Counted from the stretch's first letter, positions 1 to 59,487 are shown. The stretch is 64,000 nt of DNA from Parcubacteria group bacterium LiPW_15 (GCA_007375645.1 VMER01000001.1:337576-401575); one strand, 5' to 3'. Translations and numbers: made by a program. Notes: a model not told the origin generated them from the sequence alone.

Positions 1-247
1 GACCATTAAAGCGACTAGGATATGTTAAGCGATAAGGCTCGGCTTGTCAACTGGTTCCGCTTTCCCGTTTTTGAGGAACGGCGTTCGCTCTCTCCGGCGG
101 ATAGCGCCGCCTGAATCTCACGATAATTTCTCCGCAATAGCGGAGACCCGAGCAAATTATCGCTCCGATGCCTCCTCGTCAAACGGGAAAGCTCCACGGG
201 AGCAGAGAAAAACGCGCGGTACATGGGAATCCGAAGGCCCGAGCAAA

Positions 248-3544: not shown

Positions 3545-3589
3545 GGGTTTTGCTGGTAAAACCTGCCTTTCGACCCTAAGCTCTACAAA

Positions 3590-5023
3590 TCAAACCCTTA
3601 GGGCCTCGCGGAAATCCTTTACCGCTTGCAAAGGATTATCGAAATACCTGTCTATAAGTCTGGCGGCTAACTCCGGCGTGGTCTTCAATTTCTCGGTTAG
3701 CGCATAAACCGCCGGAAATAATCTCGTGTTTAAAACATTGTCCAAAATCCGCTTCCTAAGCCCCCGCTCCAACTCCTCGCCGATCATCTCTACAGTCGTC
3801 GCCCCAGGCATGGCCAAGTGTGCCAAATTTTCCATAAGCGCATTCATGCGGGCAAAAAGGACCAGCTGATACGGAAGCGGCATCTTGTGCTTTATGAATA
3901 TTTTTATAAACCCGACGAACCAGAAACCAAGACCGGCAAATTCTGTTTGCTCCAGATAATCTTCAACATCTTTCCGGATAAGACCCTTAAAACGCGCGTC
4001 TGCCCGACACATGCGAACTGCCACCTTGATAGATTCTTCCACATTTCCGGCATACACCGCCAAGATAAAATCTTTTGTCTCTTCACAATCCCTGCCTTCA
4101 AAATGCCCCAAAAGACCGTAGTCCAAAAGCGCCAAGCGCCCGTTCGGCAACAAAAGCACATTCGCCGGATGCGGATCACCATGGAAGTAAAAATCCGATT
4201 CGTGCATCCAATCGTAAAGGACCGCATTCATAAATCGTTTCATAGAAGAAACTGCGTCGTACTCCGGATTGTTCTTAATAAGTTCCAGCTTGTTCATCGG
4301 CACGCCATCTATAAAGTCCATAGTGATGACATTATCCGACAAAAATTCCTCATGAATATCCGGAATTACGATCGCGTGGGTATAAGGATTTTTCCCATTT
4401 TGCATCCGCCGCACATATTTTTTCACCGTTCTTAGATTTTCCGCCTCTCTTCTAAAATCGGTCTCCTGGAACATCCAATCCTCTATCTGAGAAACAACTA
4501 CATCCATTCGAATCTGTCGAAGACTGCGAGAAAATATTTTTGTGAGCCTAAGAAGCGATTTGATTATTGCGAGATCCGATTTTATGGTCCGTTGAATATT
4601 GGGCCGGCGGATCTTCACTGCCACATCCTCGCCCGTCGTGAGCTTCGCCCTATAAACCTGAGCGATAGAAGCCGAGGCGATGGGTTGGGTATCAAACTCT
4701 TTAAACAACTCCTCGGGATATTTTTTAAAATCAGCTAAAAATATCGCCCGCACAGTTTCTTCGGAGATGGGCGGAACCTTGTCTAGAAGGCCGGCCAACT
4801 CCGCAGAATCTTCTTTGGAAATTAACTCGTAGCGGGTACTGAGCAATTGTCCGAACTTTATAAACACCGGCCCCAATTCCTCGCAGGCCAGGCGGATGCG
4901 CCTCCCTAAAATAGCTTTGCGGTTGCCGGTGAATTTGTACCAAACAAAATATTTGCCGCAAACCAAAAGCACCCTTGGAATGCGCAAAGTTGTTCCTTGT
5001 TCTCTAGCGACGCGGTTTGTCAT
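3590..5023 (-). CDS. ABC1/UbiB-family (ADCK-like) atypical protein kinase
   Basis: 477 aa; FIKFGQLLSTR, ASIAQVYRA, FHGDPHPANVLL motifs typical of the ABC1 kinase family. Confidence 0.85.
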   Translation of the reverse strand: MTNRVAREQGTTLRIPRVLLVCGKYFVWYKFTGNRKAILGRRIRLACEELGPVFIKFGQLLSTRYELISKEDSAELAGLLDKVPPISEETVRAIFLADFKKYPEELFKEFDTQPIASASIAQVYRAKLTTGEDVAVKIRRPNIQRTIKSDLAIIKSLLRLTKIFSRSLRQIRMDVVVSQIEDWMFQETDFRREAENLRTVKKYVRRMQNGKNPYTHAIVIPDIHEEFLSDNVITMDFIDGVPMNKLELIKNNPEYDAVSSMKRFMNAVLYDWMHESDFYFHGDPHPANVLLLPNGRLALLDYGLLGHFEGRDCEETKDFILAVYAGNVEESIKVAVRMCRADARFKGLIRKDVEDYLEQTEFAGLGFWFVGFIKIFIKHKMPLPYQLVLFARMNALMENLAHLAMPGATTVEMIGEELERGLRKRILDNVLNTRLFPAVYALTEKLKTTPELAARLIDRYFDNPLQAVKDFREALRV

Positions 5024-5038
5024 ATCTCGACTGTTTTG

Positions 5039-5377
5039 TTATTTACAGTCTGCGCAAAAATAATATTTTTTACCAGCCTTGTTCTCGCCGACCACCCCAA
5101 CCGTGCCCTTGGAAATTGTTTTCCCGCAAGAAGCGCATTCCATATCCTGAGCGAACTGGGCCCGGTGGAAACTCACAATATCTTCGAATTTATTTTTTTT
5201 ATCCCCCGCGCCGAATATCTCCCGCGAAAGATCATGGATTATCTCCACGCTGTCCTCTATCGCCTTGCGAGCCAAATTGGAAACGCTCTCTCGGTTCTCC
5301 TTGGCTTTCTGCTTCATCTTTTCGTAGGTTTTCCGGGAAACCCGAAAATTAATGATGTAGTCCTTGTTTTCGTCCAT
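5039..5377 (-). CDS. small ribbon-helix-helix (CopG-like) protein with C-terminal CxxC...CxxC zinc ribbon
   Basis: 112 aa; N-terminus INFRVSRKTYEKMKQKAKE..SVSNLARKAIED (RHH-like); C-terminus CASCGK...FCADCK. Confidence 0.6.
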   Translation of the reverse strand: MDENKDYIINFRVSRKTYEKMKQKAKENRESVSNLARKAIEDSVEIIHDLSREIFGAGDKKNKFEDIVSFHRAQFAQDMECASCGKTISKGTVGVVGENKAGKKYYFCADCK

Positions 5378-5506
5378 CGCTTTTAAAATGGTTTATATTA
5401 ACCGACACTTACATTGTATTACAACGTATATCCCGGTCAAGCCGCTGCGGAACTCCTCCCCTAAAAGAAAATAAACTGTGCTTTAAAAACCAAGTTCGGA
5501 AATAAA

Positions 5507-6279
5507 TTACACTCTTACAATCTTACAGTTATTGAAGGCGTGTAAAATGTCGTTTTTTATAAGTTCGAATGTTTCTGCCCCCACCCCATCGCTTGCAGTA
5601 ACGCCATTTCCATACAACACCACTTTCACATTTTTACCTACATCGAAGATCGCGATGTATCCCCTTAATCTCAAAGTCTCATAAGACTTCCCCTTATTTT
5701 GAGGCCTTAGCATCTTACCGAATAAATTTAGGGATGGATTATAAGCGTTGAATACATAAGACATGACAACCGCCGAAAGTTTCAGCCAGATGCGACTGAA
5801 GCCATCTCCGACATCGCTATGAGTCAGGCATCCTCCTTTGTAGAGGGTTCCGGAATATTGGCCAAGTTTGATAGAGCCTATTTTTTGGAACCTTGTTCGG
5901 TCATCTCGCAAAAAGAATGCGGATCGCCGTATCGCCTCAACCAACCTTCCTGATCCGCAACCGCAAGATTAAAATGATCATGTAAATTCCACGCTTGTCC
6001 CTCCTCCAATTTGACCGTATATCCGCCAAGCCAAGATTGGTACTGTGGCTTTTCGGAAACAAACCGGGAAGAGACACCGTTTTCAACCCTCCCAACCGTA
6101 AAATAATTTGCTCCTTTGGAAATTTTAAGTCCGAATTTCTGCCAGGTTCGTGTCATCTCGCACCCCATAATTCCATCGATCCAAAGGTCGGGAATTTCCG
6201 TAAAAACAAGCTTGTAGCCGATCTCGCTTTCGGCTTGTTTTAATTTATTCAGAATTATTAGGTCAGAAATGAATTTCAC
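5507..6279 (-). pseudogene. hypothetical protein gene split into two ORFs (5878..6279 and 5507..5944) by a frameshift at an A6 run (plus-strand T6 at 5881..5886)
   Basis: the two overlapping ORF frames join exactly at CCAAAAAATAGG; A7 instead of A6 gives one continuous protein of about 257 aa. Confidence 0.5.
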
Positions 6280-7010
6280 GTTTTTGCCAGCAAAACCTGG
6301 GTGGCTTCCATGGGTTGCAATTTCTCCGGCTTGCCAACCATAAATTCGTCAAAAGCTTTCCAAACGCCTTCGCATTGCCCGTAATCATGGGAAAGAATTC
6401 TGCCGCCGGGCAGCATCCTCGGATAGAAAAATTCCAGGGCTTTTTTTGTAACGCTATAAAGATCCACGTCCAAATGGACAAAAGAAAATTTCAGATCTTT
6501 AACAGCCTCCCCTGTTTCAGGGAACAATCCCGGATATATTTGAATAGCCGGATACCTAGAAAGCCTGGCTCTAACTTCTTTTTCGCCAGCGAGAAACATT
6601 CCTTTCTTGAATCTTCCGTCCCGCCCACTAACCTCATCCGGCAACCCTTCGAAAGTGTCAAAAAGATGGAGCGGGGTTTTATTTTTCACCTCGCAAATCA
6701 CTTTTGCAGAGGCCCCGCGGAATACACCGACTTCGGCAAATGCGCCGCCGTGATCGGCCATAATGCGAGCCTGCTCCCAAATGTTAAGAAGTTCGCCCGG
6801 GCTGAACAACACCGGCTTTCTGCCGGTGAAAAAACTGCCGATCATTGACCCCTCTTCCTCGCGATAAATTTCGGATACAAGATCAAACGCCTTCTTTTCA
6901 AGCGGATTGCGTTTGTAATATTTTAGTTTACCAAGCTCAACGCGCGACATGATGCGCTTTAAAAACATTCCCCAGCGAGTATTTGAAATTTGATTATCGA
7001 TTCCCGGCAT
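6276..7010 (-). CDS. class I SAM-dependent O-methyltransferase, TylF/MycF-like family
   Basis: 244 aa; GAFAEVGVFRGASAKVI, LHLFDTFEGLP, FVHLDVDLY...LPGGRILSHDY; 4-nt ATGA overlap with the downstream ORF. Confidence 0.8.
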   Translation of the reverse strand: MPGIDNQISNTRWGMFLKRIMSRVELGKLKYYKRNPLEKKAFDLVSEIYREEEGSMIGSFFTGRKPVLFSPGELLNIWEQARIMADHGGAFAEVGVFRGASAKVICEVKNKTPLHLFDTFEGLPDEVSGRDGRFKKGMFLAGEKEVRARLSRYPAIQIYPGLFPETGEAVKDLKFSFVHLDVDLYSVTKKALEFFYPRMLPGGRILSHDYGQCEGVWKAFDEFMVGKPEKLQPMEATQVLLAKT

Positions 7011-7017
7011 TATTGTT

Positions 7018-7052
7018 ATTTATAAGCAAAGAACACTGTAGCGACCGCAAAA
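7018..7052 (-). promoter_or_regulatory. putative promoter with extended -10 (TGcTTATAAAT) ending about 7 nt before the methyltransferase ATG (leaderless transcript suspected)
   Basis: minus-strand read TTTTGC-17nt-TGCTTATAAAT-aacaata-ATG. Confidence 0.35.
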
Positions 7053-7138
7053 ATCAGAGCAACAGAGAAATTTCATATCTTCGTCTAAAAATTATCTACT
7101 ATCCGTTGGCAGACGTAAAGATAAAAAATGGCCCGCCG

Positions 7139-7170
7139 CCTACATGGCATTGGGCCCGAACGAAAGAACG
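7139..7170 (-). terminator. intrinsic terminator after small CDS 7179..7475
   Basis: GGCCC...GGGCC hairpin followed by ATTTTTTAT on the minus strand. Confidence 0.45.
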
Positions 7171-7178
7171 TGCTACCG

Positions 7179-7475
7179 CTACCGCTTTTGCTTGTCCGAG
7201 ACCGGCGCCGGCTGAGAAACGCCAGTGGGATCCAGCCTCCTCAGAAGCTCAGCCTCCAGAATGCCCCTTAGCACCCCCTGCGGGGCATGCTGACACGCCG
7301 AAGCGAAATCAGCTACCAACTCCCGACCGGACATAGTTTCCGGAACTGCAAAATCACGACCCATATACCCTCCAATCTTTTCACATCCGTCCTTTGGATG
7401 TGACCGAAATATAACAACCTCGGAAATGTCCGTCAAACAAAAATCCCGCCTATCCATAGATGGGCGGGATTCCAT
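7179..7475 (-). CDS. hypothetical small protein (GC-rich 3' half)
   Basis: 98 aa ORF; RBS AAGGGG 8 nt upstream; own terminator. Confidence 0.35.
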   Translation of the reverse strand: MESRPSMDRRDFCLTDISEVVIFRSHPKDGCEKIGGYMGRDFAVPETMSGRELVADFASACQHAPQGVLRGILEAELLRRLDPTGVSQPAPVSDKQKR

Positions 7476-7500
7476 TGTTTATCCCCTTGATCGCTACTTT

Positions 7501-10109: not shown

Positions 10110-10535
10110 CTACTTCTTCGCTCCTCCCTTGGCTCTTTTAGCTCCGTACTTGGAGCGCTGTTGCTTTCTTCCTTCCACGCCGGAAGTATCCAAGACTCCG
10201 CGCACAACATGGTAGCGGACACCCGGAAGATCTTTTACGCGGCCTCCGCGAATAACAACGATGGAGTGCTCCTGGAGGTTGTGGCCCTCTCCTCCGATGT
10301 AGGCAGTAGTTTCCATGCCGTTAGTCAAACGAACGCGGCAAACTTTACGCAAAGCGGAGTTCGGTTTCTTCGGAGTGGTGGTGAAAACTTTAAGACATAC
10401 TCCCCTCTTAAATGGAGACGGGGAATTCACGGGCTTATTTTTGAGGTGGTTAAAATAATACGAAAAAGCCGGAGACTTGGTCTTCGTCTTTAGAACTTTC
10501 CTTCCGCGTTTTACGAGCTGATGGATTGTAGGCAT
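10110..10535 (-). CDS. rpsL: 30S ribosomal protein S12
   Basis: 141 aa; [12 protein letters not shown]...[11 protein letters not shown] signature. Confidence 0.95.
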
Positions 10536-10582: not shown

Positions 10583-10611
10583 ATTTTAAGCAATAGCAGG
10601 CTCAAAGTCAA
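10583..10611 (-). promoter_or_regulatory. putative str-operon promoter (-35 TTGACT, 17 nt spacer, -10 TAAAAT)
   Basis: minus-strand read tccTTGACTttgagcctgctattgctTAAAATcg, about 50 nt upstream of rpsL. Confidence 0.5.
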
Positions 10612-10618
10612 GGATTAC

Positions 10619-10755
10619 GCTCTCTCGTTTTCGGGGACCGGCGTTCAATTTGCTCCTGCGGCAAATTGCCGCCTGTATCTCGGCATTTTGACCCCACCTA
10701 AGACGGGGTTCCTAGCTCAAAATGCCTCCGATAACTCCCCGCGAAACGAGAGAGC
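10619..10755. ncRNA. unassigned structured element (about 137 nt multi-stem fold closed by an 18 bp stem)
   Basis: stem P1 gctctctcgttttcgggg/ccccgcgaaacgagagagc; internal hairpins gcggc-aaatt-gccgc and ggcattttg[acccc..ggggt]caaaatgcc. Confidence 0.35.
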
Positions 10756-10879
10756 TCCATTCGGGTGAAGGGGAAAAAGCACGAAATAGCCTCCTTGGTG
10801 GACGAACATGCCCGAGCTAATCAGGTCGCTACATTTGGGAAGAAAGGGAGATGGCGAGGAATAGCCTCCATTAATTTAG

Positions 10880-10935
10880 AAAAAAAGCCCCCGCTGCCTC
10901 GTCTCGCTAAAGTTCTGCGAAGCGGGTCGGCGGGG
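10880..10935 (-). terminator. intrinsic terminator (long imperfect GC hairpin plus T-run) after CDS 10943..11542
   Basis: ccccgccgacccgc...gcagcggggg followed by cttttttt on the minus strand. Confidence 0.5.
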
Positions 10936-10942
10936 TACAAGA

Positions 10943-11542
10943 TCACTTCTTGGCCGGAATATCTATGACCGTCTCGAAGATGAGCGTGCTGAAAGCACCC
11001 GGCCAGATGCGTTCGGTTGCCACCGGAATTCCCTTTTGGCCAAAGTATTCGAGAGAGATGAAGGGTTCGAATTTTCCGCCTCTTAGCTCCTGCCGAAATA
11101 GCCAGATATCGAAACCGATCCTGCGAAACGGTTCCAGGTCCTGCCCATCCTCGGTCAGCACCGTTAACGAGTACCGCGAGGTTCTTCCCCTCACGAGACG
11201 CCTTGATCGGCCTAAGGCATCGCCTTTTCCTGATTCGCTAAAGGCCAACAAAGCACTAACGCCGGGGCGGACGTAGTACCGTGAACATGTATTCGCGGTG
11301 ATCCATCTGTCGAAGACATGAAAGACGCCGTAGCCAGCTCCGCGAGGATCGTCCATCATACCGAAGCCGCCGATTCCCCGAAGACCGAATATCTCCACTC
11401 CTCTCGGATTGAAGATCGAAAGGTCGTGGAAATACTTTTGCTGATGAACCGCTTCCGCGGCGCTCTCGGGCGCCTCTATCGAAGCACACGACCGGATAAG
11501 GTTCAGGTACGGGATTTCCTTCCCTTTTGTTTTAACCCACAT
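10943..11542 (-). CDS. hypothetical protein on a GC-rich islet
   Basis: 199 aa from the ATG preceded by a GGAAGGAGAG RBS; high GC3. Confidence 0.55.
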   Translation of the reverse strand: MWVKTKGKEIPYLNLIRSCASIEAPESAAEAVHQQKYFHDLSIFNPRGVEIFGLRGIGGFGMMDDPRGAGYGVFHVFDRWITANTCSRYYVRPGVSALLAFSESGKGDALGRSRRLVRGRTSRYSLTVLTEDGQDLEPFRRIGFDIWLFRQELRGGKFEPFISLEYFGQKGIPVATERIWPGAFSTLIFETVIDIPAKK

Positions 11543-11616
11543 CGCACACTCTCCTTCCAAACGACTACCTGAATTAAACTCATTTGAAGTCTTTTTGTAA
11601 ATAATGAAAACTTTGA

Positions 11617-11651
11617 GAAAAAATAAATGGCCCGCGCGTGATGCGCGGGCC
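11617..11651 (-). terminator. intrinsic terminator after CDS 11661..12161
   Basis: ggcccgcgcg-tgat-gcgcgggcc perfect hairpin followed by a T-rich run on the minus strand. Confidence 0.7.
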
Positions 11652-11660
11652 GTCGCTGGT

Positions 11661-12161
11661 CTACTTCTCGATCGGCGGACGGAACATGATTCCCGGAAGG
11701 AGTTGATAGGCGTAGTTGCCCCTCTTCCCGATCCGTTCGACATAACCGGATCGATGCCAGTATGTGAGGACGCTGTACACCGGCGACTTCATGCTCAGAC
11801 CGCTCCGTTCGCCCGCCAAGGTTTCGACCTCGGCAAGTACTTCCGGACCGCGCATGAAACGATGTCTATTGGCGTGAAACACCGTCCAGCACTTGTCGGC
11901 GATGAAAGACAAGGGGCGATGCTTCTCAAGCCTCATCCCCTCGACGATGCGATAGCGGCCAAATCCTACGCGGGCGAAGCAACCTTCCCTGGTCTTGATA
12001 CTCAAGACCTCGGCGATCTTTCGCCTCTTGAGAGAGGTACGCCTCCAAATGTCCTCGACGGAAACCTCGGACTTTCCCTCTCCGGAAAAAAGGTCGATGA
12101 CCCCTTGAACGGTCTGAGTCACGGCCGAAAATGGAATGGCCACGCCTTTTGGTGCCCCCAT
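11661..12161 (-). CDS. hypothetical protein with C-terminal winged-helix-like segment, on a GC-rich islet
   Basis: 166 aa; high GC3; SMKSPVYSVLTYWHRSGYVERIGKRGNYAYQL resembles a wHTH. Confidence 0.55.
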   Translation of the reverse strand: MGAPKGVAIPFSAVTQTVQGVIDLFSGEGKSEVSVEDIWRRTSLKRRKIAEVLSIKTREGCFARVGFGRYRIVEGMRLEKHRPLSFIADKCWTVFHANRHRFMRGPEVLAEVETLAGERSGLSMKSPVYSVLTYWHRSGYVERIGKRGNYAYQLLPGIMFRPPIEK

Positions 12162-12239
12162 CAGCGTTCTCCTTCTTTCGAAAATTTCAAAACCTCCAAG
12201 ACCTGGCTATCTTATACAATAGGCGGCCACAACGGTCAA

Positions 12240-12869
12240 CTATAAACTAAGCCCGGTAAATAAAGTGAATAGAGCGCCGATGATCGGCCGCAATATCGAA
12301 AATCCGAAAAAGATAAAAAGGAAGATCAAAATCATTCCATTCCGTTCCAAGGCCGTCAGAAATTTAAAGGTCCTCTCCCCTTGCGGAAGTATCGCCATCA
12401 AAACCTTCGAGCCATCAAGCGGCGGAATCGGCACCAGGTTAAAAACTCCGAGCGAAACATTCGCAAAAGCTATGCCCGCGAAAAGCGCCGGCAATATATC
12501 GTTCGGCGTCATCCCATAAAGATAACTAAATCTGACCGCGAGCCCAAAGATAAACGCCAAAAGAAAATTACTTAATGGTCCGGCCGCCGCGATCTTTGCC
12601 GCACCCGTGCGCGGATTTTTTAAATTCATCGGGTTATACGGCACGGGCTTCGCCCAACCGAAAAGCACCGGCGAATTTGTAAACACCAAAATGAGCGGCA
12701 AGAGAACCGAACCGAAGATATCAATGTGACTTAGCGGATTCATAGTGAGCCGTCCGGCGTTCCGCGCCGTCGGGTCGCCCAATTTTTCCGCTACAAACCC
12801 GTGCGATACTTCGTGTATCATCACGGAAAATACGAGAACCACCAATCCGAAAAGATGAACCAGATCCAT
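12240..12869 (-). CDS. site-2 protease family (M50) zinc metallopeptidase
   Basis: 209 aa polytopic membrane protein with HEVSHG (HExxH) and NLVPIPPLDG motifs. Confidence 0.85.
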   Translation of the reverse strand: MDLVHLFGLVVLVFSVMIHEVSHGFVAEKLGDPTARNAGRLTMNPLSHIDIFGSVLLPLILVFTNSPVLFGWAKPVPYNPMNLKNPRTGAAKIAAAGPLSNFLLAFIFGLAVRFSYLYGMTPNDILPALFAGIAFANVSLGVFNLVPIPPLDGSKVLMAILPQGERTFKFLTALERNGMILIFLFIFFGFSILRPIIGALFTLFTGLSL

Positions 12870-13020
12870 TTGATATATTGTATCTCAATAATCTTCCGGT
12901 ACCAATTGGCCAAAATGAAAAATCGTTGTATATTCAATAAAACGCGCTTCCCGATAGGATAGTAAGCTATCCAACGGGACAGGCTCCGCTCAAACAATTT
13001 GGCTTTTTATCCCGTCAATT

Positions 13021-13092
13021 GCCCCCGTGGTGAAATGGATATCATAACTGGCTTCGAACCAGTAGGTGGGAGTTCGATCCTCTCCGGGGGCA
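13021..13092 (+). tRNA. tRNA-Arg (anticodon TCG)
   Basis: hand-folded cloverleaf; anticodon loop CTTCGAA; T-loop TTCGATC; no encoded CCA. Confidence 0.8.
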
Positions 13093-13119
13093 CATGAATA
13101 GTTGAGCAATCTACGGGAC

Positions 13120-13162
13120 GAACCAAGGGGTTGCAGGTTCGAGTCCTGCCGAGCGCACACCA
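13120..13162 (+). other. tRNA 3'-half-like fragment (T-arm GCAGG-TTCGAGT-CCTGC plus acceptor-like strand plus CCA) with no matching 5' half
   Basis: ...GGTTCGAGTCCTGCCGAGCGCACACCA lies immediately after tRNA-Arg; no complementary acceptor 5' strand found. Confidence 0.4.
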
Positions 13163-13227
13163 AACAAGAAATGCCCACAAGGGAGAGTTTTGTTTTATGT
13201 GCACAAAGCGTGCCGCTCAAGGGGATC

Positions 13228-13812
13228 TCACGCGCCCGCTTCGCCGCTCTCCGCGGGCAGGATCATTTTAATTTCTTCGAATTTGACGCCGCTCGGAAAA
13301 GTTAGCTGCGAAGGAATGCTCCCCGCCTCCACGAATCCCAAACTCTTATAAAAATCTATCGCTTTTTTATTCGCGGCTTGCACGGTTAAAAATATATCTT
13401 TCCCCGTTCCAAAATATTCGGAAATCTTGCCCCACATCTTCCGGGCCAACCCTAGGCCTTGATATGTCGGTAAGACATAGATCGCTCCGAGTTCATTACT
13501 TTCCGAATGTTTGACGCACCAGGCATAACCCACAACGGCATCGCCGTCTTTTATGACTAGCGCTTTTTCGTTCTCCGGCATGGCGCGCAATTCTTCGGCA
13601 GTTCCGACTATAGCCCTATCCGAAAACGACTTTTTAAAATCATTAAAATACCACTGAATGTCTTCGCGAGTTATGCCAGTTCCTTTGTCTGCATAGGTAT
13701 CCAGCCAGGTTTCGTATTCTACGCTTCTTAATCCCGCAGCGTCTTTGGGTAAAGCATCAGAGATACTAATCTTTTCTCCTTCAAACTTTTCGCCGTTTTC
13801 CATTTTAGGCAC
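13228..13812 (-). CDS. GNAT family N-acetyltransferase
   Basis: 194 aa; YVLPTYQGLGLARKMW...KAIDFYKSLGFVE acetyl-CoA-binding motifs. Confidence 0.8.
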   Translation of the reverse strand: MPKMENGEKFEGEKISISDALPKDAAGLRSVEYETWLDTYADKGTGITREDIQWYFNDFKKSFSDRAIVGTAEELRAMPENEKALVIKDGDAVVGYAWCVKHSESNELGAIYVLPTYQGLGLARKMWGKISEYFGTGKDIFLTVQAANKKAIDFYKSLGFVEAGSIPSQLTFPSGVKFEEIKMILPAESGEAGA

Positions 13813-13814
13813 TT

Positions 13815-13890
13815 TGGTGCACCCACAAGGGATCGAACCTTGGACCGTCTCCTTAAGAGGGAGCTGCTCTACCAGCTGAGCTATGGGTGC
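13815..13890 (-). tRNA. tRNA-Lys (anticodon CTT), CCA encoded
   Basis: reverse complement folds as GCACCCA-TA-GCTC..; anticodon loop CTCTTAA; T-loop TTCGATC. Confidence 0.85.
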
Positions 13891-13907
13891 GATAGTTTAG
13901 CTTTTAC

Positions 13908-13936
13908 ATTCTACATTCTAGATTCTAGATTCTCAA
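13908..13936 (-). promoter_or_regulatory. putative tRNA-Lys promoter (-35 TTGAGA, 17 nt spacer, -10 TAGAAT) built from heptamer direct repeats (TACATTC)2(TAGATTC)2
   Basis: plus-strand tacattctacattctagattctagattctcaag at 13903..13935; the -10 element lies about 22 nt upstream of the tRNA 5' end. Confidence 0.45.
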
Positions 13937-16440: not shown

Positions 16441-16467
16441 AAAAGACCCGGTTCGTGGCCGGGCCCG
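16436..16467 (-). terminator. intrinsic terminator after CDS 16479..16793 (also lies 3' of recG)
   Basis: gacccgg-ttcgtgg-ccgggc hairpin followed by tttttt on the minus strand. Confidence 0.6.
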
Positions 16468-16478
16468 GACATCCCTTC

Positions 16479-16793
16479 TTAGGAAACCAGGTAGTGGAAG
16501 TACTGGAGCCTCTCGATCGTGCTGACCAGTCGGATTCGACACACCCCGCAATCCTTAAAGTGTTGCGTGATTGTCGCGGAAGACATGTCCTCGGCCGAAA
16601 CCCCGTTCAGGTTTAGACAGGTTACATTTTCCAGAAGCAAAGAAATGATGTGGGGCGGGATTTCGCCCTGCCATGGCGCAGTTTCCTTCCCTATCCCGGG
16701 ACCATCGTTCCTCAGCCACCAGGGCCAAGTTCTTATCTCTTCGCTCACCGAACGAAGAGATTTACCGAGAAATCCTTTTGAATTTTCGCTCAT
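16479..16793 (-). CDS. hypothetical small protein
   Basis: 104 aa; strong RBS AGGAGGT 5 nt upstream of ATG; terminator downstream. Confidence 0.5.
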   Translation of the reverse strand: MSENSKGFLGKSLRSVSEEIRTWPWWLRNDGPGIGKETAPWQGEIPPHIISLLLENVTCLNLNGVSAEDMSSATITQHFKDCGVCRIRLVSTIERLQYFHYLVS

Positions 16794-16849
16794 CTGACAC
16801 CTCCTGGGGGTCGCTTATTTCAGTTTATCCCCAAAATAGTAGCGGTCAA

Positions 16850-20406: not shown

Positions 20407-20718
20407 TTAGGAGCAGACCAGGAGGCCGTCCGTGACGACCATCCCTGGCCCGCACAGCCTGAACCGGTGGTAACCGGTCGAGGAGCAGTGAGCGGCGCGG
20501 ATGTGCCGCTTCGCCTTCGAGGGACTGTCAGCGAGGCCTTCCATAACCTCCTCGCGGGCGGGCGCGAGCTCGCGCCGAAGCGCGACCCGCGAAGCGATGC
20601 GCTCCGCTCGTCTCTCGGCCTTCGCCTCCGCCCCGAAGGGCGAGCTGCGATACCCCGCGCGACCCTTGTCGCGCAGGATCTTCATCCAGGTCTTGCCGAT
20701 CGGGCGGGTCTTGGCCAT
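20407..20718 (-). CDS. hypothetical protein on a GC-rich islet, downstream gene of a two-gene cassette (Cys-containing C-terminus)
   Basis: 104 aa from the internal ATG MAKTRPIGKTW; very high GC3; 15 nt after the upstream gene. Confidence 0.55.
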   Translation of the reverse strand: MAKTRPIGKTWMKILRDKGRAGYRSSPFGAEAKAERRAERIASRVALRRELAPAREEVMEGLADSPSKAKRHIRAAHCSSTGYHRFRLCGPGMVVTDGLLVCS

Positions 20719-20732
20719 GTTCGCGGCTCCTT

Positions 20733-20987
20733 TCAGATCATGTCGTCGAGGTGAAGGTCGTCGATGAGGCTGCTGCCACCGAAGCTTCGAACGAGCTCGC
20801 GAAGTGACTTGCGACTGACGGCGACGTGAAAACGATGCCACGGCATCGTCCCCAGGAAACTCGTGTTCGGAACGTGCTCCAAAAGAGCTTCGGCGATCTC
20901 CGCCTTCGCGATCTTCTCGTTCAGGCTGGCTCGAACGTCCATCCGTTTCACGGGCTTCTTCCTTCTGCCATCGAAAAACTTGGGCAT
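20733..20987 (-). CDS. hypothetical small protein on a GC-rich islet, upstream gene (possible RHH-like N-terminus)
   Basis: 84 aa; high GC3; KRMDVRASLNEKIAKAEIAEALL resembles a ribbon-helix-helix. Confidence 0.5.
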   Translation of the reverse strand: MPKFFDGRRKKPVKRMDVRASLNEKIAKAEIAEALLEHVPNTSFLGTMPWHRFHVAVSRKSLRELVRSFGGSSLIDDLHLDDMI

Positions 20988-21085
20988 CTAGGTCTCCTCT
21001 CAGCGGGCTTTTGAAGAGCTGATTTCGAGCTTGCATTATAGCAAATCAGCAGAATTTGTCAACCAAGTAGTGAAGCTTTATCCCT

Positions 21086-22459: not shown

Positions 22460-22699
22460 CTATGTCGCCACGATACCCCACTCCCTGTTGCCCTTGGCGA
22501 ACACCGAAATGATGTTCAGCCCTTTTTCGTTGGAAACATAGTCGATGGCCTCCTCCAGGGCGCGCGCCCAACCATCTCCATTGGCAGTCTTGGCCTTGGG
22601 AACAAAACACTCCGCCTCGTCGTGAAGAAGAACGAAACTGCCGGTCTGAGAAATGTGCAAAAGAACGAAAACGTCGTGGATCCGCACGGGACGAGTCAT
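22460..22699 (-). CDS. hypothetical small protein (possible HicB/UPF0150-like fold), GC-rich
   Basis: 79 aa from the ATG preceded by a GAGGAGG RBS; HDEAECFVPKAKTANGDGWARALEEAI; weak resemblance only. Confidence 0.45.
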   Translation of the reverse strand: MTRPVRIHDVFVLLHISQTGSFVLLHDEAECFVPKAKTANGDGWARALEEAIDYVSNEKGLNIISVFAKGNREWGIVAT

Positions 22700-22794
22700 G
22701 GAAAACCTCCTCAATTATTCCTCGCTCTTTGTATACCAAATCCAACCCTATGGCAAATTTTGCTTATATTCAAAATACATTATACTTTCCATAA

Positions 22795-26349: not shown

Positions 26350-26973
26350 TTGAATACGCAAGGAGTCTTCGTGCTCCTCTCCTCGCTCGTCTCAATTCCC
26401 ATGTCGGCCTGGTACGCGCGCCTTGCCTGGGTCGGTAAGAGTGCGCCGCCCCTTTCCACTTGGACCATCTTTACCATAACGGTAACTCTGAGTCTCCCGA
26501 GCTATCTGTCTTCCGGGAACCGTGACGCGCTAGGCGCCATCTCGAACATCACCGACCTATTCGCCGTCTGGTCGGCGCTTATCGCGATACTGTTCGGGCA
26601 AAAGCGCCAAGCGCTGAAACTCACCAAAGCGGATATCTTCTGCCTCCTTGCCATCGTTAAGGTCTGTGTCGCCTGGGCATTCGTGTGGTACTTCTGGAGC
26701 AAGGAAACCGCCGGCCTTACCGCCTTCTGGTATATCCAGGGAATCATGGTCATCGCCTACTGGCCAACGATCACGAGGCTCTGGAAATCCAAAGAGCTGA
26801 CCGAACCTTTCGGCCCATGGCTTGGCGTCATACTCTCCATGAGTCTTGGACTGGGCGCCGCCCTAACCGGCAACGATCGCTTCCCCGCCGCCATTTATCC
26901 CCTGCGCGCCGTGGTGATGGTCTCCATCGTAATCGCCATCATCGTCTACAAACGACGCAAGCTCTCCCGTTAG
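26350..26973 (+). CDS. hypothetical polytopic membrane protein (TTG start)
   Basis: 207 aa; multiple hydrophobic helices; RBS AAGGAGGG upstream. Confidence 0.55.
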   Translation: MNTQGVFVLLSSLVSIPMSAWYARLAWVGKSAPPLSTWTIFTITVTLSLPSYLSSGNRDALGAISNITDLFAVWSALIAILFGQKRQALKLTKADIFCLLAIVKVCVAWAFVWYFWSKETAGLTAFWYIQGIMVIAYWPTITRLWKSKELTEPFGPWLGVILSMSLGLGAALTGNDRFPAAIYPLRAVVMVSIVIAIIVYKRRKLSR

Positions 26974-35335: not shown

Positions 35336-35361
35336 TTTGTTTGCGCAGCCTGCTACCATTA

Positions 35362-35381
35362 CCTGCCTGCCGGCAGGCAGG
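35362..35381. repeat. perfect 20 bp palindrome CCTGCCTGCCGGCAGGCAGG (copy 1 of 3)
   Basis: exact match to copies at 51029 and 58962. Confidence 0.9.
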
Positions 35382-35444
35382 GATGACCCGGCAATTGCGT
35401 ATTAACGCACATCAATATTACCCAAATAAGCGTTTTTTGGCAAC

Positions 35445-35479: not shown

Positions 35480-35860
35480 CTAATAGCTACCGAAAAGGCT
35501 CGCTCGCCCCGCGACCTCGAGAGTCTTGGTGATCTCCTTTGCCGTCTTGGCATCCCGCTTCCGGACGACCTCGAACATCTTCTCGAGGACTTCCCGAGGA
35601 CCCAGAATGTGGATGTCTTTCCGCTCCACCGGATAGAAGGGCTGGGACTTGCCCGATGGCCAGTAGCCCTTCTCCGGCCAGACGAGATACAGCGCCTTGT
35701 CGGGCTCGTCGTATTCTTCGACGACACCGATGACATTCCATACGTCCACCCAGACGACGTCGCCGCCTTTGAGCTCGACCCATACGTCCGCCTGGACGAC
35801 TTCGCCGCCCCTGAGCTCGGCCTCCACGACTTCCTGTTTTTCTTTGATCTCTTCCACGAT
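35480..35860 (-). CDS. hypothetical GC-rich protein with an internal tandem repeat (..EVVQADVWVEL / KGGDVVWVDVW..), probable GTG start
   Basis: about 125 aa; GGAGG RBS; imperfect roughly 39 nt tandem DNA repeat. Confidence 0.45.
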   Translation of the reverse strand: MVEEIKEKQEVVEAELRGGEVVQADVWVELKGGDVVWVDVWNVIGVVEEYDEPDKALYLVWPEKGYWPSGKSQPFYPVERKDIHILGPREVLEKMFEVVRKRDAKTAKEITKTLEVAGRASLFGSY

Positions 35861-35922
35861 GCACCTCCTAGTTCTCGCCGGATTATAACAAAAAAACAAC
35901 CTCCGTCAAAGCTGTTTTTTTG

Positions 35923-44976: not shown

Positions 44977-45047
44977 CGGGCTGTAGTATACCGGTAGTAC
45001 ATGCGCTTCGGGTGCGTAAAGACTGGGTTCGATTCCCAGCAGCCCGA
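44977..45047 (+). tRNA. tRNA-Pro (anticodon CGG), no encoded CCA
   Basis: folds as CGGGCTG-TA-GTAT..; anticodon loop TTCGGGT; T-arm CTGGG-TTCGATT-CCCAG. Confidence 0.75.
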
Positions 45048-45248
45048 CAACTACAATTTCATGTTTTGTCGAACCGGCGTCGCCCTTCCCCTGCGGAAGG
45101 GCGCGCCTGTATCTCGGATATAAAAATCCGCCACAACGGCGGAACCGGGCTTTTTATTCCTCCGATGACTTCGCCAAAACATGAAATTTCCGCGGAGACA
45201 AACACACGCGTTCTATGGCATATAAAAAGAATGGGAATCGAACAGCGG

Positions 45249-50621: not shown

Positions 50622-50694
50622 GCGGGAGGATTAGGGAATGGTTTCCCGGGGAGCCCCATAAGCTCTTGAAGCTGGTCCGATTCCAGCTCCCGCA
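50622..50694 (+). ncRNA. non-canonical tRNA-like gene (perfect 7 bp acceptor stem GCGGGAG/CTCCCGC, T-arm GCTGG-TCCGATT-CCAGC, irregular D/anticodon region)
   Basis: 73 nt; acceptor and T-arm fold by hand, but no canonical anticodon arm; its 3' end is the direct-repeat target of element C. Confidence 0.45.
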
Positions 50695-50964
50695 ACAAGA
50701 AACAAAAACACCCCGAGGGGTGTTTTTGTTTTGATGTTGGAATCGGACGTGAAGGGGGTCGGGGAAACGGCGGTTGCTCGCGCAAGTAAACAAACGTCTT
50801 TCCGCCGATAGGCGGGGCCGTGGCGGAAATACTGCAATTGGTAGCGAGGATAAAATGGCATTGAACATTTTAGCCGAGCGAACCAATTGATGGCTTGTCC
50901 TTCAAACCGCGGGGTGTTAGAAAATTCGCAAAGCGAATTTTGTCTGCTTCCAGCTCCCGCAACA
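50681..50964 (-). mobile_element. miniature tRNA-3'-end-associated element, copy C
   Basis: 17 bp direct repeat ttccagctcccgcaaca at 50681..50697 (the tRNA-like 3' end) and 50948..50964; conserved core at 50750..50843 on the minus strand, with a roughly 45 nt expansion of the hairpin; spacer homologous to copy B. Confidence 0.55.
50704..50731. terminator. bidirectional intrinsic terminator / centre of a 22 bp nested palindrome
   Basis: aaaaacaccccgaggggtgttttt. Confidence 0.65.
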
Positions 50965-51028
50965 GCTTCAGTTTTCAATTTCGCGAAGACAGCGTCAACC
51001 GCTTCCAGCGAGCGGTTGCGCCTGAATC

Positions 51029-51048
51029 CCTGCCTGCCGGCAGGCAGG
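51029..51048. repeat. perfect 20 bp palindrome CCTGCCTGCCGGCAGGCAGG (copy 2 of 3)
   Basis: exact match; lies in a roughly 900 bp ORF-poor region. Confidence 0.9.
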
Positions 51049-51201
51049 TCGTAGCAAAAATCTGCCATTCGGCAGAACCAATCTTTTTGCTCCTCCAATG
51101 TCCTCCGCAAAATCGAAAACTTCCGCCGTGGAAGTAAGAGAAAAAAATATACAAAAAAAGCCGGTGTCCGCCACATACGTGGTTTCGTGTCCGGCTGCGC
51201 T

Positions 51202-51447
51202 TCACTGGGAAGCAGAGGTGGAATTCGGATTAAGCTTCGCCCGCAGCTCCGCGAGGAGCTCGACCGGATTGACGCCCCTGGCGTCCTTCGGTAGCAGGGC
51301 GCAGGCAGCCTCAACCAGCTTCTCCTCGAATGGGGTTCTTGTGTGGTTGGGGCTGGACTCATGGATTTCCCGGAGCGTCTTCAGAACGACGGTCATGAGC
51401 TTATCGTTCCCGAGCGATCGCAGATCGATTTCGTCCTTTTTGGGCAT
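51202..51447 (-). CDS. hypothetical small GC-rich protein
   Basis: 81 aa from the ATG preceded by a GAGAGGAG RBS. Confidence 0.4.
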   Translation of the reverse strand: MPKKDEIDLRSLGNDKLMTVVLKTLREIHESSPNHTRTPFEEKLVEAACALLPKDARGVNPVELLAELRAKLNPNSTSASQ

Positions 51448-52866: not shown

Positions 52867-52953
52867 AAATTAATAATGGCGCCGATCAATTGAAAAACAC
52901 CTACGGCTAAATTATTATAGATTCAGCCCCAAGCAGGGAGAAAGGAATCTGAG

Positions 52954-53142
52954 ATGTGCTCGAGAGATGACGACTATGAGTTCTGGAGAAGAGAGAACCT
53001 CTGCTCGATAGAGAGAGCAGCCGGGTTCGGAAACGAAAGCGCGCAACAGGTGCTCCGAGAATTGGAGCAGAGGCCACCCACACCCGTCATCGGCACCGCA
53101 GATCCCAGGACCCCCGATTCGCCCGAGGCCGAAAAAGGCTGA
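52954..53142 (+). CDS. hypothetical small GC-rich protein
   Basis: 62 aa; RBS AGGA upstream; GC-rich hairpin plus T-run downstream. Confidence 0.3.
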   Translation: MCSRDDDYEFWRRENLCSIERAAGFGNESAQQVLRELEQRPPTPVIGTADPRTPDSPEAEKG

Positions 53143-53242
53143 ACAGAGCGACTCGCTCGAATGGGCCGGCGTTACGCGCCGACCCATTTCTTTTACTTAT
53201 TCGCCCCTATAAATTGATCCCAAAACTTTATATACTATTCTC

Positions 53243-57429: not shown

Positions 57430-59487
57430 CTATCCGATGAGCCTTAGGAATTCCTTTTCGCTTAGGATTTTGACCCCCAGCTCTTTAGCCTTCTTATACT
57501 TACTCCCCGGCTCGGCACCGGCCACGAGATAAGAGGTTTTGGAGCTAACCGATTCGGAAACGTCTCCCCCAAGTTCTCTTATCTTTTGTTTCGCAAGCTC
57601 GCGAGACATGGAATCCATGGAACCGGTGATGACAAAAGAAAGGTCTTTCAGTTTTTCGACTTTCACCGAAGGCGGCGCGAGAACAATCACTACCCCGGCG
57701 GCTTCAAGCTTTCCCAAAAGATGAGTATTCCTTTTTTCCTTGAACCATTCGTAAATGCTTTCGGCGACTTTCGGACCAATATCTTTTATCTCTTGTAATC
57801 GCTCCAGCGAAAGTCCGCCGTAAAAGTTCAAAAATTTGGAAATGCTCAAGCGCCCACTCTTCTTCTCCGGAAATATATTCGCAAGGGTTATCGCAGTTTC
57901 TTCGCCCACATGAATTATTCCTAAGGAGTAAATAAAGCGTGAAAGAGGGACTGATCTTTTCGCTTCGACTTCTTTTATAACATTTTCCGCCGACTTTTCA
58001 CCGAAACGAGGCAGGGCTTCCACATCTCCTTGTTTCAGGGTAAAAATGTCCGCCGCATCGACTATCAAGCCCTCGTCCAATAATCTATCTATTATTTTTG
58101 GACCCAAACCGTCCAAATTAAATCCTCCGCGGGATATAAAATGATAAAGCTGCTCCCTGTGTCGCGCGCCGCAATACTTGTTGGAACATTTATAAGCCAC
58201 CCCGTCACGAATGACCCCGGACCCGTCTACGGGACAGTTCTCCGGCATCTTGAACTTTTTTTCCTTGCCGGTCCGGAACTCCGGCAAAACCTTGGTTATT
58301 TGCGGGATAACGTCTCCGGCCCGGGAAACGATAACTGTGTCGCCAACCCTTACCCCAAGCCGTTCTATCTCATCCGCATTATGAAGGCTCGCGTGGGTTA
58401 TGGTCACGCCGCCCACGTTCACCGGACGCATCACCGCGACCGGCGTCAGCGCCCCAGTACGACCGACCTGAACCTCTATCGCCTCCACAATGGTCGTGGC
58501 TTCCCTCGGAGAAAACTTGTAGGCGATTCCCGCGCGCGGAGTTTTGCCGATTATCCCCGCTTCTTCGTATGTGGCGTTGTCGTTTATGGAAATAACTATG
58601 CCGTCTATTTCATAAGCAAGGCGCTCTCTCATTTTTAGAACGTCTTTATGAAATTCGAATATCTCTTCTATATTTCTCGCAACTATGCCGTGCGGATTGG
58701 TTTTGAGCCCGTATTTATTGAGTTCGGCGTATTCCTCGGATTTTGTTCTGTATCCGGGAGTAACAACATCGTAGGCGTAAAAATCCAATTTCCTTGAGGC
58801 GGTTATCTTCGGATCCAATTGCCGTATGGAACCGGCGGCGACATTGCGAGGATTCGCATAGGGTTTTTCTCCTTTTTTCTCCTGCTCGCGGTTCAGCCTC
58901 GCAAATTCTTTTTTGGTCAGGAAGGTTTCCCCGCGAACGATGAGGCGCTTGGGATATCCGCCCTGCCTGCCGGCAGGCAGGTCCCCTCTCTCGAGTCTTA
59001 AGGGTATCGCGTCAATAGTTTTCAAATTTTCCGTGACATCTTCGCCGATCATGCCGTCTCCGCGCGTGGACCCGGAAACAAAGAGGCCATCTTCGTAGAT
59101 AAGCTCCATCGCGAGACCGTCCATTTTTAGATCGCAATAAAATCCGTTTTTTGCGAAACTAGTTTTGGGTCCGAAATAATTTTTTAGACGCGTGAGCCAT
59201 TCCTGAATATCCTGCGGGGAAAATGCGTCGTTTAGGGAGATCATCCGCGTTCCGTGCCTGACTTTTTTAAAAGCGGAAAGCGGCTTTCCCCCAACCCGTT
59301 GAGTCGGTGAATCTTTGGCAATAAATTCCGGATAGCGCGATTCCAGATCAAAAAGCTCCTTCTTTAAAGAGTCCAGGGCCCCTTCGGAAATAAGAGATTT
59401 ATCCAAAACATGGTACGCGTAGCGGTACTTATTTATTTCCGTCTTTAGTTTTTCGATACGCTTCTTGGCCTCATCCTTAGCCGTCAT
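57430..59487 (-). CDS. ligA: NAD-dependent DNA ligase
   Basis: 685 aa; adenylation KxDG region, OB fold, Zn finger, HhH and BRCT; carries an in-frame 7 aa insertion LPAGRQG encoded by the 20 bp palindrome. Confidence 0.95.
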   Translation of the reverse strand: MTAKDEAKKRIEKLKTEINKYRYAYHVLDKSLISEGALDSLKKELFDLESRYPEFIAKDSPTQRVGGKPLSAFKKVRHGTRMISLNDAFSPQDIQEWLTRLKNYFGPKTSFAKNGFYCDLKMDGLAMELIYEDGLFVSGSTRGDGMIGEDVTENLKTIDAIPLRLERGDLPAGRQGGYPKRLIVRGETFLTKKEFARLNREQEKKGEKPYANPRNVAAGSIRQLDPKITASRKLDFYAYDVVTPGYRTKSEEYAELNKYGLKTNPHGIVARNIEEIFEFHKDVLKMRERLAYEIDGIVISINDNATYEEAGIIGKTPRAGIAYKFSPREATTIVEAIEVQVGRTGALTPVAVMRPVNVGGVTITHASLHNADEIERLGVRVGDTVIVSRAGDVIPQITKVLPEFRTGKEKKFKMPENCPVDGSGVIRDGVAYKCSNKYCGARHREQLYHFISRGGFNLDGLGPKIIDRLLDEGLIVDAADIFTLKQGDVEALPRFGEKSAENVIKEVEAKRSVPLSRFIYSLGIIHVGEETAITLANIFPEKKSGRLSISKFLNFYGGLSLERLQEIKDIGPKVAESIYEWFKEKRNTHLLGKLEAAGVVIVLAPPSVKVEKLKDLSFVITGSMDSMSRELAKQKIRELGGDVSESVSSKTSYLVAGAEPGSKYKKAKELGVKILSEKEFLRLIG
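58962..58981. repeat. perfect 20 bp palindrome CCTGCCTGCCGGCAGGCAGG (copy 3 of 3), inside the ligA coding sequence
   Basis: exact match; ligA remains a continuous ORF across it. Confidence 0.9.

What the first reader, a model, noticed from the sequence alone, without database searches (positions are those of the whole stretch)
10880..12161. Second GC-rich two-gene islet (166 aa wHTH-like plus 199 aa unknown) between rpsL and an M50 protease, each gene with its own terminator
Both genes have high GC3 and are followed by GC-rich hairpin terminators (ggcccgcgcg-tgat-gcgcgggcc at 11629 and a long hairpin at 10888). These hairpins resemble the terminators of the other GC-rich islets (20374; 53171 region). 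Gene 11661..12161 ends in a winged-helix-like segment. Gene 10943..11542 (MWVKTKGKE...) has no recognisable motif. Recurrent GC-rich hairpin terminators after every GC-rich small gene suggest these islets share an origin or donor.
Basis: seen in the sequence. Interest (0 to 1): 0.5.

Follow-up and report, generated by a model that had tools for sequence, protein, structure and literature searches.

The report
Fast-evolving gene pair upstream of rpsL
Two small, real genes (a winged-helix DNA-binding protein and a protein made of two copies of an unknown beta-rich module) fill a variable slot between a membrane-protease gene and the ribosomal rpsL operon of a Patescibacteria genome. They are old, fast-evolving residents of that slot rather than a recent import from a shared donor, so the finding itself is fairly ordinary.

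Summary
Both ORFs exist at the stated coordinates, both are GC3-rich (z = +3.1 and +1.7 against 42 window genes), and each is followed by a GC-rich hairpin plus T-run.

The interpretation mostly fails.
- In about 15 Patescibacteria loci the M50 protease gene directly abuts rpsL (gap 21-180 nt), so the pair is an insertion relative to the wider group.
- Diverged relatives carry homologues in the same slot. L025 has ORF-A-like (36% identity), a short paralogue and ORF-B-like (24%). L026 has ORF-B-like only.
- Those homologues are also GC3-rich.
- The ORF-A terminator stem is conserved in L025. The ORF-B terminator is conserved in L002 behind a different gene.
- Terminators after GC-rich genes are no more alike than other terminators (P = 0.49).

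So this is a lineage-specific, fast-evolving, gain-and-loss-prone locus, not a recent import from a common donor.

ORF-A has an AbiEi-type N-terminal winged helix but meets none of the other AbiE criteria. ORF-B is an internal duplication of a ~75-aa module from a family with only three distinct members in the two large protein collections searched.

By-product: a ~155-nt three-way-junction element next to the islet belongs to a multi-copy, strongly covarying, strand-specific family that is absent from Rfam.

The parts
12211..12239 (-). Promoter-like site for ORF-A, starting immediately after the M50 stop codon: TTGACC, 17 nt, TATAAG(AT)
   Evidence: Read from the sequence. The same TTGAC(C/T)...TATAA(G/A) block follows the M50 stop in L002, after which similarity ends. 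The tool's scan did not list it because the -10 lacks T at position 6. Function is inferred.
11661..12161 (-). ORF-A, 166 aa, basic (pI 10.1). N-terminal AbiEi-type winged helix (about residues 16-77) and a second, weaker wHTH-like segment (about residues 100-155).
   Evidence: The frame is validated by the substitution pattern against L001. The homologue in L025 (645-1133) gives BLASTP 8e-32 at 36% identity.
11619..11651 (-). Intrinsic terminator of ORF-A: GGCCCGCGC-ATCAC-GCGCGGGCC plus a T-rich tail
   Evidence: The stem GCCCGCGC/GCGCGGGC is conserved after the ORF-A homologue in L025, where the sequence is AGCCCGCGCCAACAGCGCGGGCTTTTT.
11573..11601 (-). Promoter-like site for ORF-B: TTTACA, 17 nt, TTTAAT
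   Evidence: Read from the sequence. TTTACAAAA also follows the terminator in L025. Inferred; the tool's scan did not report it.
10943..11542 (-). ORF-B, 199 aa, a tandem duplication of a ~75-aa beta-rich module
   Evidence: hhalign of the N half against the C half gives probability 96.6%, E = 5e-10. Homologues P0005 (E = 1.4e-5) and P0006 (E = 6e-4) were found in a library of 1.84 billion representative proteins. Both lie between M50 and rpsL.
10882..10935 (-). Imperfect long hairpin plus T7: intrinsic terminator closing the slot
   Evidence: It is 86% identical to L002 7028-7083, where it follows a different 107-aa gene. It therefore belongs to the slot, not to an imported cassette.

Best explanation
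The region is a lineage-specific accessory locus that fills an insertion-prone gap between the M50 protease gene and the rpsL-rpsG-fusA operon in one subclade of Patescibacteria.

It holds two independent transcription units, each with a sigma-70-like promoter, a Shine-Dalgarno sequence, an ORF and an intrinsic terminator.

ORF-A is a small basic DNA-binding protein with an AbiEi-type N-terminal winged helix. It most likely acts as a transcriptional (auto)regulator. ORF-B is a pseudo-dimeric protein built from two copies of a ~75-aa beta-rich module. Single-module paralogues occur in relatives.

The genes entered the slot in an ancestor of the subclade. They have since diverged three- to four-fold faster than the flanking genes, and have been duplicated or lost in different lineages: A-B here, A-b'-B in L025, B alone in L026, possibly b' alone in L002.

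The raised GC3 is a stable property of these genes. One possible cause, which is inference only, is GC-biased repair at a recombination-prone site. It is not a mark of recent foreign origin. The hairpins are ordinary terminators.

Shown: gene reality, synteny, divergence, internal duplication, terminator conservation. Inferred: promoter use, DNA binding and regulation, any functional coupling of A and B.
For: - The M50-rpsL gap is 21-180 nt in about 15 loci and larger only in a few lineages.
- L026 has M50, the ORF-B homologue, then rpsL. L025 has M50, the ORF-A homologue, a 131-aa gene, the ORF-B homologue, then rpsL.
- Identities to the window: M50 92/75/63% for L002/L025/L026; rpsL 94/88% for L002/L026; ORF-A 36% (L025); ORF-B 24-26% (L025, L026).
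- The homologues are also GC3-rich: 0.61-0.67 against 0.53 for their flanks.
- Internal duplication of ORF-B.
- AbiEi wHTH hits; ORF-A pI 10.1.
- Terminator T_A is conserved in L025 and T_B in L002. The promoter after the M50 stop is conserved in L002.
- Purifying pattern in ORF-A: 4 synonymous against 2 conservative changes.
- No Pfam, NCBIfam, PHROG, PDB, plasmid or viral match suggesting a foreign source.
Against: - The closest other species (L002, M50 92% identical) lacks ORF-A and has only a 107-aa gene whose link to the ORF-B family is weak (hmmsearch E = 0.01; hhalign E = 0.002, probability 13%). Either several losses occurred in a short time, or alleles of the slot are exchanged by recombination.
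- Only four independent lineages carry the family, so repeated targeted insertion cannot be excluded.
- Both AlphaFold models were useless (pLDDT 33-36), so folds and functions are untested.
- The C-terminal wHTH of ORF-A rests on weak hits only (E = 0.03; N half against C half hhalign E = 0.17).
- No evidence links A and B functionally; B occurs without A.
Confidence: 0.65

Rival explanations
1. One reading: a recently acquired foreign islet, sharing a GC-rich donor and its terminators with the other GC-rich islets of the window.
For: - Atypical GC3.
- Absent from the closest other species, L002.
- The window differs from L002 by several other small insertions, such as 16441-16849 and 3550-7497.
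- All the GC-rich small ORFs tested lack Pfam hits.
- Terminators in the window share slightly more 6-mers than arm-shuffled controls: 18 pairs against about 10 expected, P = 0.0125.
Against: - Syntenic homologues at 24-36% identity in diverged relatives.
- GC3 enrichment is conserved in them.
- T_A is orthologous in L025 and T_B is ancestral in L002.
- Terminators after GC-rich genes are no more alike than other terminators, P = 0.49.
- No paralogues in the window.
- No integrase, direct repeats or tRNA at the borders.
- No plasmid or phage matches.
Confidence: 0.08
2. A toxin-antitoxin or abortive-infection-like module: ORF-A is an AbiEi-like antitoxin/repressor and ORF-B is a new kind of toxin or effector.
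For: - The ORF-A family matches only AbiEi models in PADLOC: E = 5e-4 for ORF-A, and 6e-6 and 9e-6 for the L025 homologue.
- The regulator lies upstream of the partner, as in AbiE (PMC3985639).
- The locus is variable, as defence loci often are.
- Fast evolution.
Against: - The matches cover only the N-terminal wHTH (profile positions ~4-72 of 177-263). The AbiEi C-terminal domain is not matched.
- ORF-B has no DUF1814/NTase hit and no hG[GS]x9-15DhD motif.
- The genes are 118 nt apart with a strong terminator and a separate promoter-like site, not bicistronic.
- ORF-B homologues occur without ORF-A in L026.
- No PADLOC hit for any member of the B family.
Confidence: 0.15
3. One or both ORFs are not genes, meaning chance ORFs in a GC-rich spacer or an antisense gene as called by JGI.
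For: - The JGI caller annotated the antisense 213-aa ORF instead of ORF-A.
- No family hits.
- ORF-B shows 1 synonymous and 2 non-synonymous changes against L001.
Against: - ORF-A has 4 synonymous and 2 conservative changes, while the antisense frame has 7 of 7 non-synonymous.
- Strong Shine-Dalgarno sequences before both ATGs.
- Protein-level homologues in the same slot: BLASTP 8e-32 for A, library-wide E = 1.4e-5 for B.
- The ENA caller annotated both genes.
Confidence: 0.03

Closest known systems
AbiEi / COG5340-type antitoxin-regulators of type IV AbiE toxin-antitoxin systems (PMC3985639; PMC7319586)
   Same: [quoted passage not shown] It is a small basic protein encoded upstream of a partner gene.
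   Different: - ORF-A is 166 aa against about 200-290 aa.
- The AbiEi C-terminal domain is not matched.
- The partner is not a DUF1814 nucleotidyltransferase.
- The genes are not bicistronic.
- The partner occurs alone in relatives.
Lineage-specific orphan genes at variable inter-operon slots (strain-variable islets flanked by conserved core genes)
   Same: - The flanks are conserved: the M50 stop plus promoter, and the terminator plus rpsL promoter.
- The content is variable between close relatives.
- Divergence is fast, and there are no mobility genes.
   Different: The content here is not random. The same two families recur in the slot across relatives whose M50 is only 63-75% identical.
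Canonical intrinsic (Rho-independent) terminators
   Same: GC-rich stem, short loop and T-run directly after each stop codon.
   Different: Nothing unusual. T_B is long and imperfect: 19-nt arms, 74% paired.
Bacterial interspersed structured repeats (ERIC, Correia/MITE, REP/BIME). Relevant only to the neighbouring Y-shaped element.
   Same: About 150 nt, intergenic, multi-copy, with a long terminal stem.
   Different: - The copies differ in stem sequence through compensatory changes while the junction and loop nucleotides are conserved.
- The G-U against A-C bias is strongly strand-specific.
- That is the pattern of a functional RNA rather than a young transposon family.
- No Rfam match.

Membership tests
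AbiE type IV toxin-antitoxin system | [quoted passage not shown] | tested here: met
   PADLOC AbiEi models: ORF-A E = 5e-4 (residues 28-77) and 1.4e-3. The L025 homologue gives E = 6.2e-6 and 9.3e-6 (residues 16-83). Significance is modest.
AbiE type IV toxin-antitoxin system | AbiEi C-terminal domain needed for toxin neutralisation | tested here: not met
   All alignments stop at about profile position 72-79 of 177-263. ORF-A is only 166 aa.
AbiE type IV toxin-antitoxin system | Partner toxin is a DUF1814 / Pol-beta nucleotidyltransferase with an hG[G/S]x9-15DhD motif | tested here: not met
   No Pfam, NCBIfam or PADLOC hit for ORF-B or its homologues. The motif is absent from all three family members.
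AbiE type IV toxin-antitoxin system | Bicistronic operon, with the two genes overlapping or adjacent | tested here: not met
   There is a 118-nt spacer containing a hairpin with 9 G-C pairs, a T-run and a separate promoter-like site.
Recently acquired genomic islet | Atypical base composition | tested here: met
   GC3 z = +3.1 and +1.7. However, the syntenic homologues in L025 and L026 show the same bias, so it is not diagnostic here.
Recently acquired genomic islet | Absent from all but the closest relatives; homologues found in unrelated donors or mobile elements | tested here: not met
   Homologues occur only in the same slot of diverged relatives. None were found in plasmids, phage families or viral contigs.
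Recently acquired genomic islet | Mobility signatures at the borders (integrase, tRNA target, direct repeats) | tested here: not met
   No such ORF, tRNA or flanking direct repeat lies between 10536 and 12240.
Intrinsic terminator | GC-rich hairpin immediately followed by a U-run downstream of a stop codon | tested here: met
   11651-11629 plus ATTTATTTTT; 10935-10889 plus T7.
   Mean longest shared word is 4.89 within the group and 4.91 between groups; label-permutation P = 0.49.

The most novel reading that the evidence does not exclude
The M50-rpsL slot is a locus under diversifying selection. It carries a previously undescribed regulator-effector pair: an AbiEi-like wHTH protein and a new two-module beta protein, for example a new toxin-antitoxin or defence system of Patescibacteria. 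It is bordered by a new, multi-copy, three-way-junction RNA family that sits directly against strong promoters and is reshuffled between strains.
Probability: 0.15. Interest if true: 0.65.

Novelty: new member of a known kind. Interest (0 to 1): 0.3.

Why it matters
For the finding itself, modestly. It shows that GC-rich 'islets' in this small Patescibacteria genome need not be recent imports. At least this one is a long-resident, fast-evolving accessory locus in a gap that has been filled independently in several lineages. It also defines two tiny protein families, one of them an internally duplicated module with three distinct members in the large protein collections searched.

The by-product may matter more. 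A ~155-nt strand-specific structured element family with very strong covariation, unknown to Rfam, has four copies in 64 kb. Structured non-coding RNAs of this phylum may be poorly catalogued (my impression; one untargeted literature search, does not settle it).

Tried and rejected
- Structure prediction of both proteins from single sequences gave pLDDT 36 and 33.
- Pfam, NCBIfam, PHROGs and PDB sequence or profile searches gave nothing credible.
  - A weak PDB hit of ORF-B to a PNPOx-like haem-binding protein (5bnc, E = 0.069) was rejected: it covers 48 residues at the wrong end of that fold, and it was not among the hits when the profile of alignment A3 was searched.
  - The profile search's best PDB hit for the ORF-B family, 4p3y_B (a thiol:disulfide interchange protein, E = 0.0099 over 75 profile positions), was treated as not credible and not followed up.
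- Giant repeat proteins P0003 and P0004 were treated as repeat-inflated matches.
- tblastn against plasmids and pattern scans of viral contigs found no match.
- Word-indexed searches found only 99%-identical copies. Only the exhaustive search found the ORF-B family.
- ORF-A as a tandem wHTH duplication is not supported by hhalign (E = 0.17).
- An integron attC or cassette reading of the Y element was considered from memory of the attC R-box consensus only, not tested with a tool. I saw no R-box-like ends, and there is no cassette array (the four copies lie far apart in the window). No integrase was looked for.
- A viral-contig pattern scan for the Y element gave 32 matches. None was confirmed by the covariance model.

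Full report
**Observation.** The region between rpsL (10110-10535, minus strand) and a Peptidase_M50 gene (12240-12869, minus) holds two minus-strand ORFs. ORF-A is 11661-12161 (166 aa) and ORF-B is 10943-11542 (199 aa). Both are preceded by AAGGAGA 7-8 nt before the ATG.

ORF-A has GC3 0.695 and ORF-B 0.620, against a mean of 0.523 (sd 0.056) for 42 larger genes of the window. That gives z = +3.1 and +1.7. GC2 is also raised.

ORF-A is followed by GGCCCGCGC-ATCAC-GCGCGGGCC plus a T-rich tail. ORF-B is followed by a long imperfect hairpin plus T7. The description is correct.

**Are they genes?** A 99%-identical strain was recovered twice, from the JGI and ENA collections: L001 (JGI) and L024 (ENA), which differ at one base. 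In ORF-A, 4 of 6 substitutions are synonymous and the other two are V>L and M>I. In the antisense 213-aa ORF that JGI annotated, all 7 changes would be non-synonymous. ORF-B has too few changes to judge this way (1 synonymous, 2 non-synonymous) but has protein-level homologues, described below. I read promoter-like sites before each gene: TTGACC-17-TATAAG at 12239-12211 and TTTACA-17-TTTAAT at 11601-11573. These are inferred, since the tool's stricter scan did not list them.

**What are the proteins?**
- Pfam, NCBIfam, PHROGs, PDB, plasmid tblastn and viral-contig scans gave nothing significant.
- Word-indexed searches of 5.8 billion clusters found only the 99% twins.
- PADLOC matched ORF-A only to AbiEi models, over the N-terminal wHTH (E = 5e-4).
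- The exhaustive HMMER search with ORF-B found two full-length small homologues, P0005 (E = 1.4e-5) and P0006 (E = 6e-4), plus two giant repeat proteins that I regard as repeat-inflated. A profile search added no further members.
- The N and C halves of the ORF-B family align with hhalign probability 96.6%, E = 5e-10. The protein is therefore a tandem duplication of a ~75-aa module.
- Single-sequence AlphaFold models were unusable, with pLDDT 33-36.

**Context in relatives: the decisive evidence.**
- P0006 lies between M50 and rpsL in L026. P0005 lies in L025 in the order M50, a 162-aa protein, a 131-aa protein, P0005, rpsL.
- The 162-aa protein is a clear ORF-A homologue: BLASTP 8e-32, 36% identity over 161 aa. 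It matches AbiEi wHTH models at E = 6e-6.
- The 131-aa protein looks like a single-module paralogue of ORF-B (hmmsearch E = 0.004).
- Identities to the window are: M50 75% (L025) and 63% (L026); rpsL 88% (L026); ORF-B 24-26%. The pair has therefore been in this slot for a long time and evolves much faster than its neighbours.
- The homologues are also GC3-rich: 0.61-0.67 against 0.53 for the adjacent genes.
- The terminator after the L025 ORF-A homologue has the same stem, GCCCGCGC/GCGCGGGC, and is followed by the same TTTACA.

**How wide is the slot elsewhere?** Scans of genome and metagenome contigs with the M50 protein gave 38 loci. Where rpsL is present downstream, the gap is 21-180 nt in about 15 of them. 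It is larger only in a few: 569 nt in L003, 698 nt in L017/L038, and 1696 nt in L011, which holds unrelated genes. The ancestral state is M50 directly upstream of rpsL. The gap has been filled independently more than once.

**The closest other species.** In L002, M50 is 92% identical and rpsG 99% identical to the window. The slot there holds only a 107-aa gene. The promoter block after the M50 stop and the T_B hairpin (86% identity) are conserved. The 107-aa protein is at best a distant single-module relative of ORF-B (E = 0.01; hhalign E = 0.002, probability 13%). So the content of the slot turns over between close relatives, either by differential loss or by allele exchange through the conserved flanks. 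T_B belongs to the slot rather than to any imported cassette.

**The hairpin claim.** Twelve strong terminator hairpins of the window share somewhat more 6-mers than arm-shuffled controls (P = 0.0125). This reflects generic GGCCCG/CGGGCC stems. Hairpins after GC-rich small genes are no more alike than they are to other terminators: 4.89 against 4.91, P = 0.49. Neither protein has a paralogue in the window. The shared-donor idea is not supported.

**Mechanism.**
- Most likely, there are two separate transcription units.
- ORF-A is a DNA-binding regulator. The grounds are the AbiEi-type wHTH and pI 10.1. I put this at about 0.7.
- ORF-B is a pseudo-dimeric beta-rich protein of unknown activity.
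- Membership in the AbiE toxin-antitoxin family fails on three of four defining features taken from PMC3985639: no AbiEi C-terminal domain, no DUF1814 nucleotidyltransferase partner or motif, and no bicistronic arrangement. ORF-B homologues also occur without ORF-A.
- A regulator-effector or toxin-antitoxin-like relationship remains possible, at about 0.15.
- The stable GC3 excess might reflect GC-biased repair at a recombination-prone site. That is inference only.

**By-product: the Y element.** Just outside the finding, at 10611-10766 (minus), lies a Y-shaped element with an 18-bp closing stem and two hairpins. Its folding z-score is about -3.5.
- It is 93% identical in L002, and all five stem substitutions there keep G-U pairing on the minus strand.
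- A covariance model built from these two copies found three more copies in the window, all on the minus strand: 51-204, 45047-45199 and 50962-51133. It also showed that the apparently different sequence at this site in strain L001 is a diverged family member.
- On the six-sequence alignment, 97% of cells pair, against 36-50% when partners are slid by 1-3 columns. 37 of 55 pairs show changes on both sides, and 0 of 500 shuffles reach that value. The alignment was fitted to the model, which favours the structure.
- G-U pairs outnumber A-C mismatches 16 to 2 on the minus strand.
- The copies at 10611-10766 and 51-204 end exactly at the -35 box of strong promoter-like sites.
- No Rfam family matches, even at E <= 5.
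- The strain difference at this site is best read as differential decay of a tandem pair of such elements.

**Verdict.** The shared-foreign-origin interpretation is not supported. The locus is an old, fast-evolving, lineage-specific accessory pair of modest interest. The neighbouring structured-element family deserves its own follow-up.

Noticed in passing
window 10611-10766(-), 51-204(-), 45047-45199(-), 50962-51133(-); L002 7236-7392; L001 2089-2236: A ~155-nt three-way-junction element family with conserved junction and loop motifs (AUCGGAG, GAGAUACAGGCG, CCGCAGGAG, GAACGCC). 37 of 55 pairs have compensatory changes and 97% of cells pair. G-U outnumbers A-C 16 to 2 on the minus strand. There is no Rfam match. 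Two copies abut the -35 box of strong promoter-like sites. Function is unknown: a small RNA, an insulator or an interspersed repeat.
   Followed up: partly
window about 10780-10860 and 10611-10766 against L001 2072-2274 and L002 7093-7400: Strains that are 99% identical in the flanks differ completely just upstream of the rpsL promoter. This looks like differential decay of a tandem pair of Y elements. The window keeps a 5' stub of the first element plus the full second one. L002 keeps half of the first plus the full second. L001 and L024 keep only the first.
   Followed up: partly
window 35361-35383, 51028-51050, 58961-58983; L001 about 2235-2254: A 20-23-nt perfect palindrome, CCCTGCCTGCCGGCAGGCAGG, recurs in intergenic DNA. 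One copy is inserted inside hairpin 1 of the Y copy at 50962-51133. Another lies between the Y element and the rpsL -35 box in L001. A similar palindrome occurs in the more distant L003. It may be a REP-like repeat.
   Followed up: no
window 3550-7497, 16441-16849 and about 12885-13928, against L002: Compared with the closest other species, the window carries further insertions. About 4 kb lies between fusA and tuf, which are adjacent in L002. A 104-aa GC-rich ORF with its own terminator lies at 16479-16793. A GNAT acetyltransferase sits between tRNA-Arg and tRNA-Lys, and the two tRNA-bearing segments are in the opposite orientation.
   Followed up: partly
L011 6576-8273; L003 6624-7194; L017 6594-7293: Other Patescibacteria lineages have filled the same M50-rpsL gap with unrelated content. 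L011 has a 333-aa antisense ORF and a 141-aa ORF. This suggests a recurrent insertion hotspot.
   Followed up: no
window 50622-50693(+): A sub-threshold tRNA-Sec-like match (33.5 bits against a gathering score of 47, E = 0.009) lies on the plus strand between tRNA-Met and a Y copy. It may be a tRNA-like remnant.
   Followed up: no
window 20407-21036, 26350-26973, 35480-35899, 22460-22714, 52915-53187, 50631-51362, 16479-16793, 278-655: None of the other GC-rich small ORFs has a Pfam hit at E <= 0.01. The 50631-51362 ORF overlaps a Y copy and is probably not a gene.
   Followed up: no
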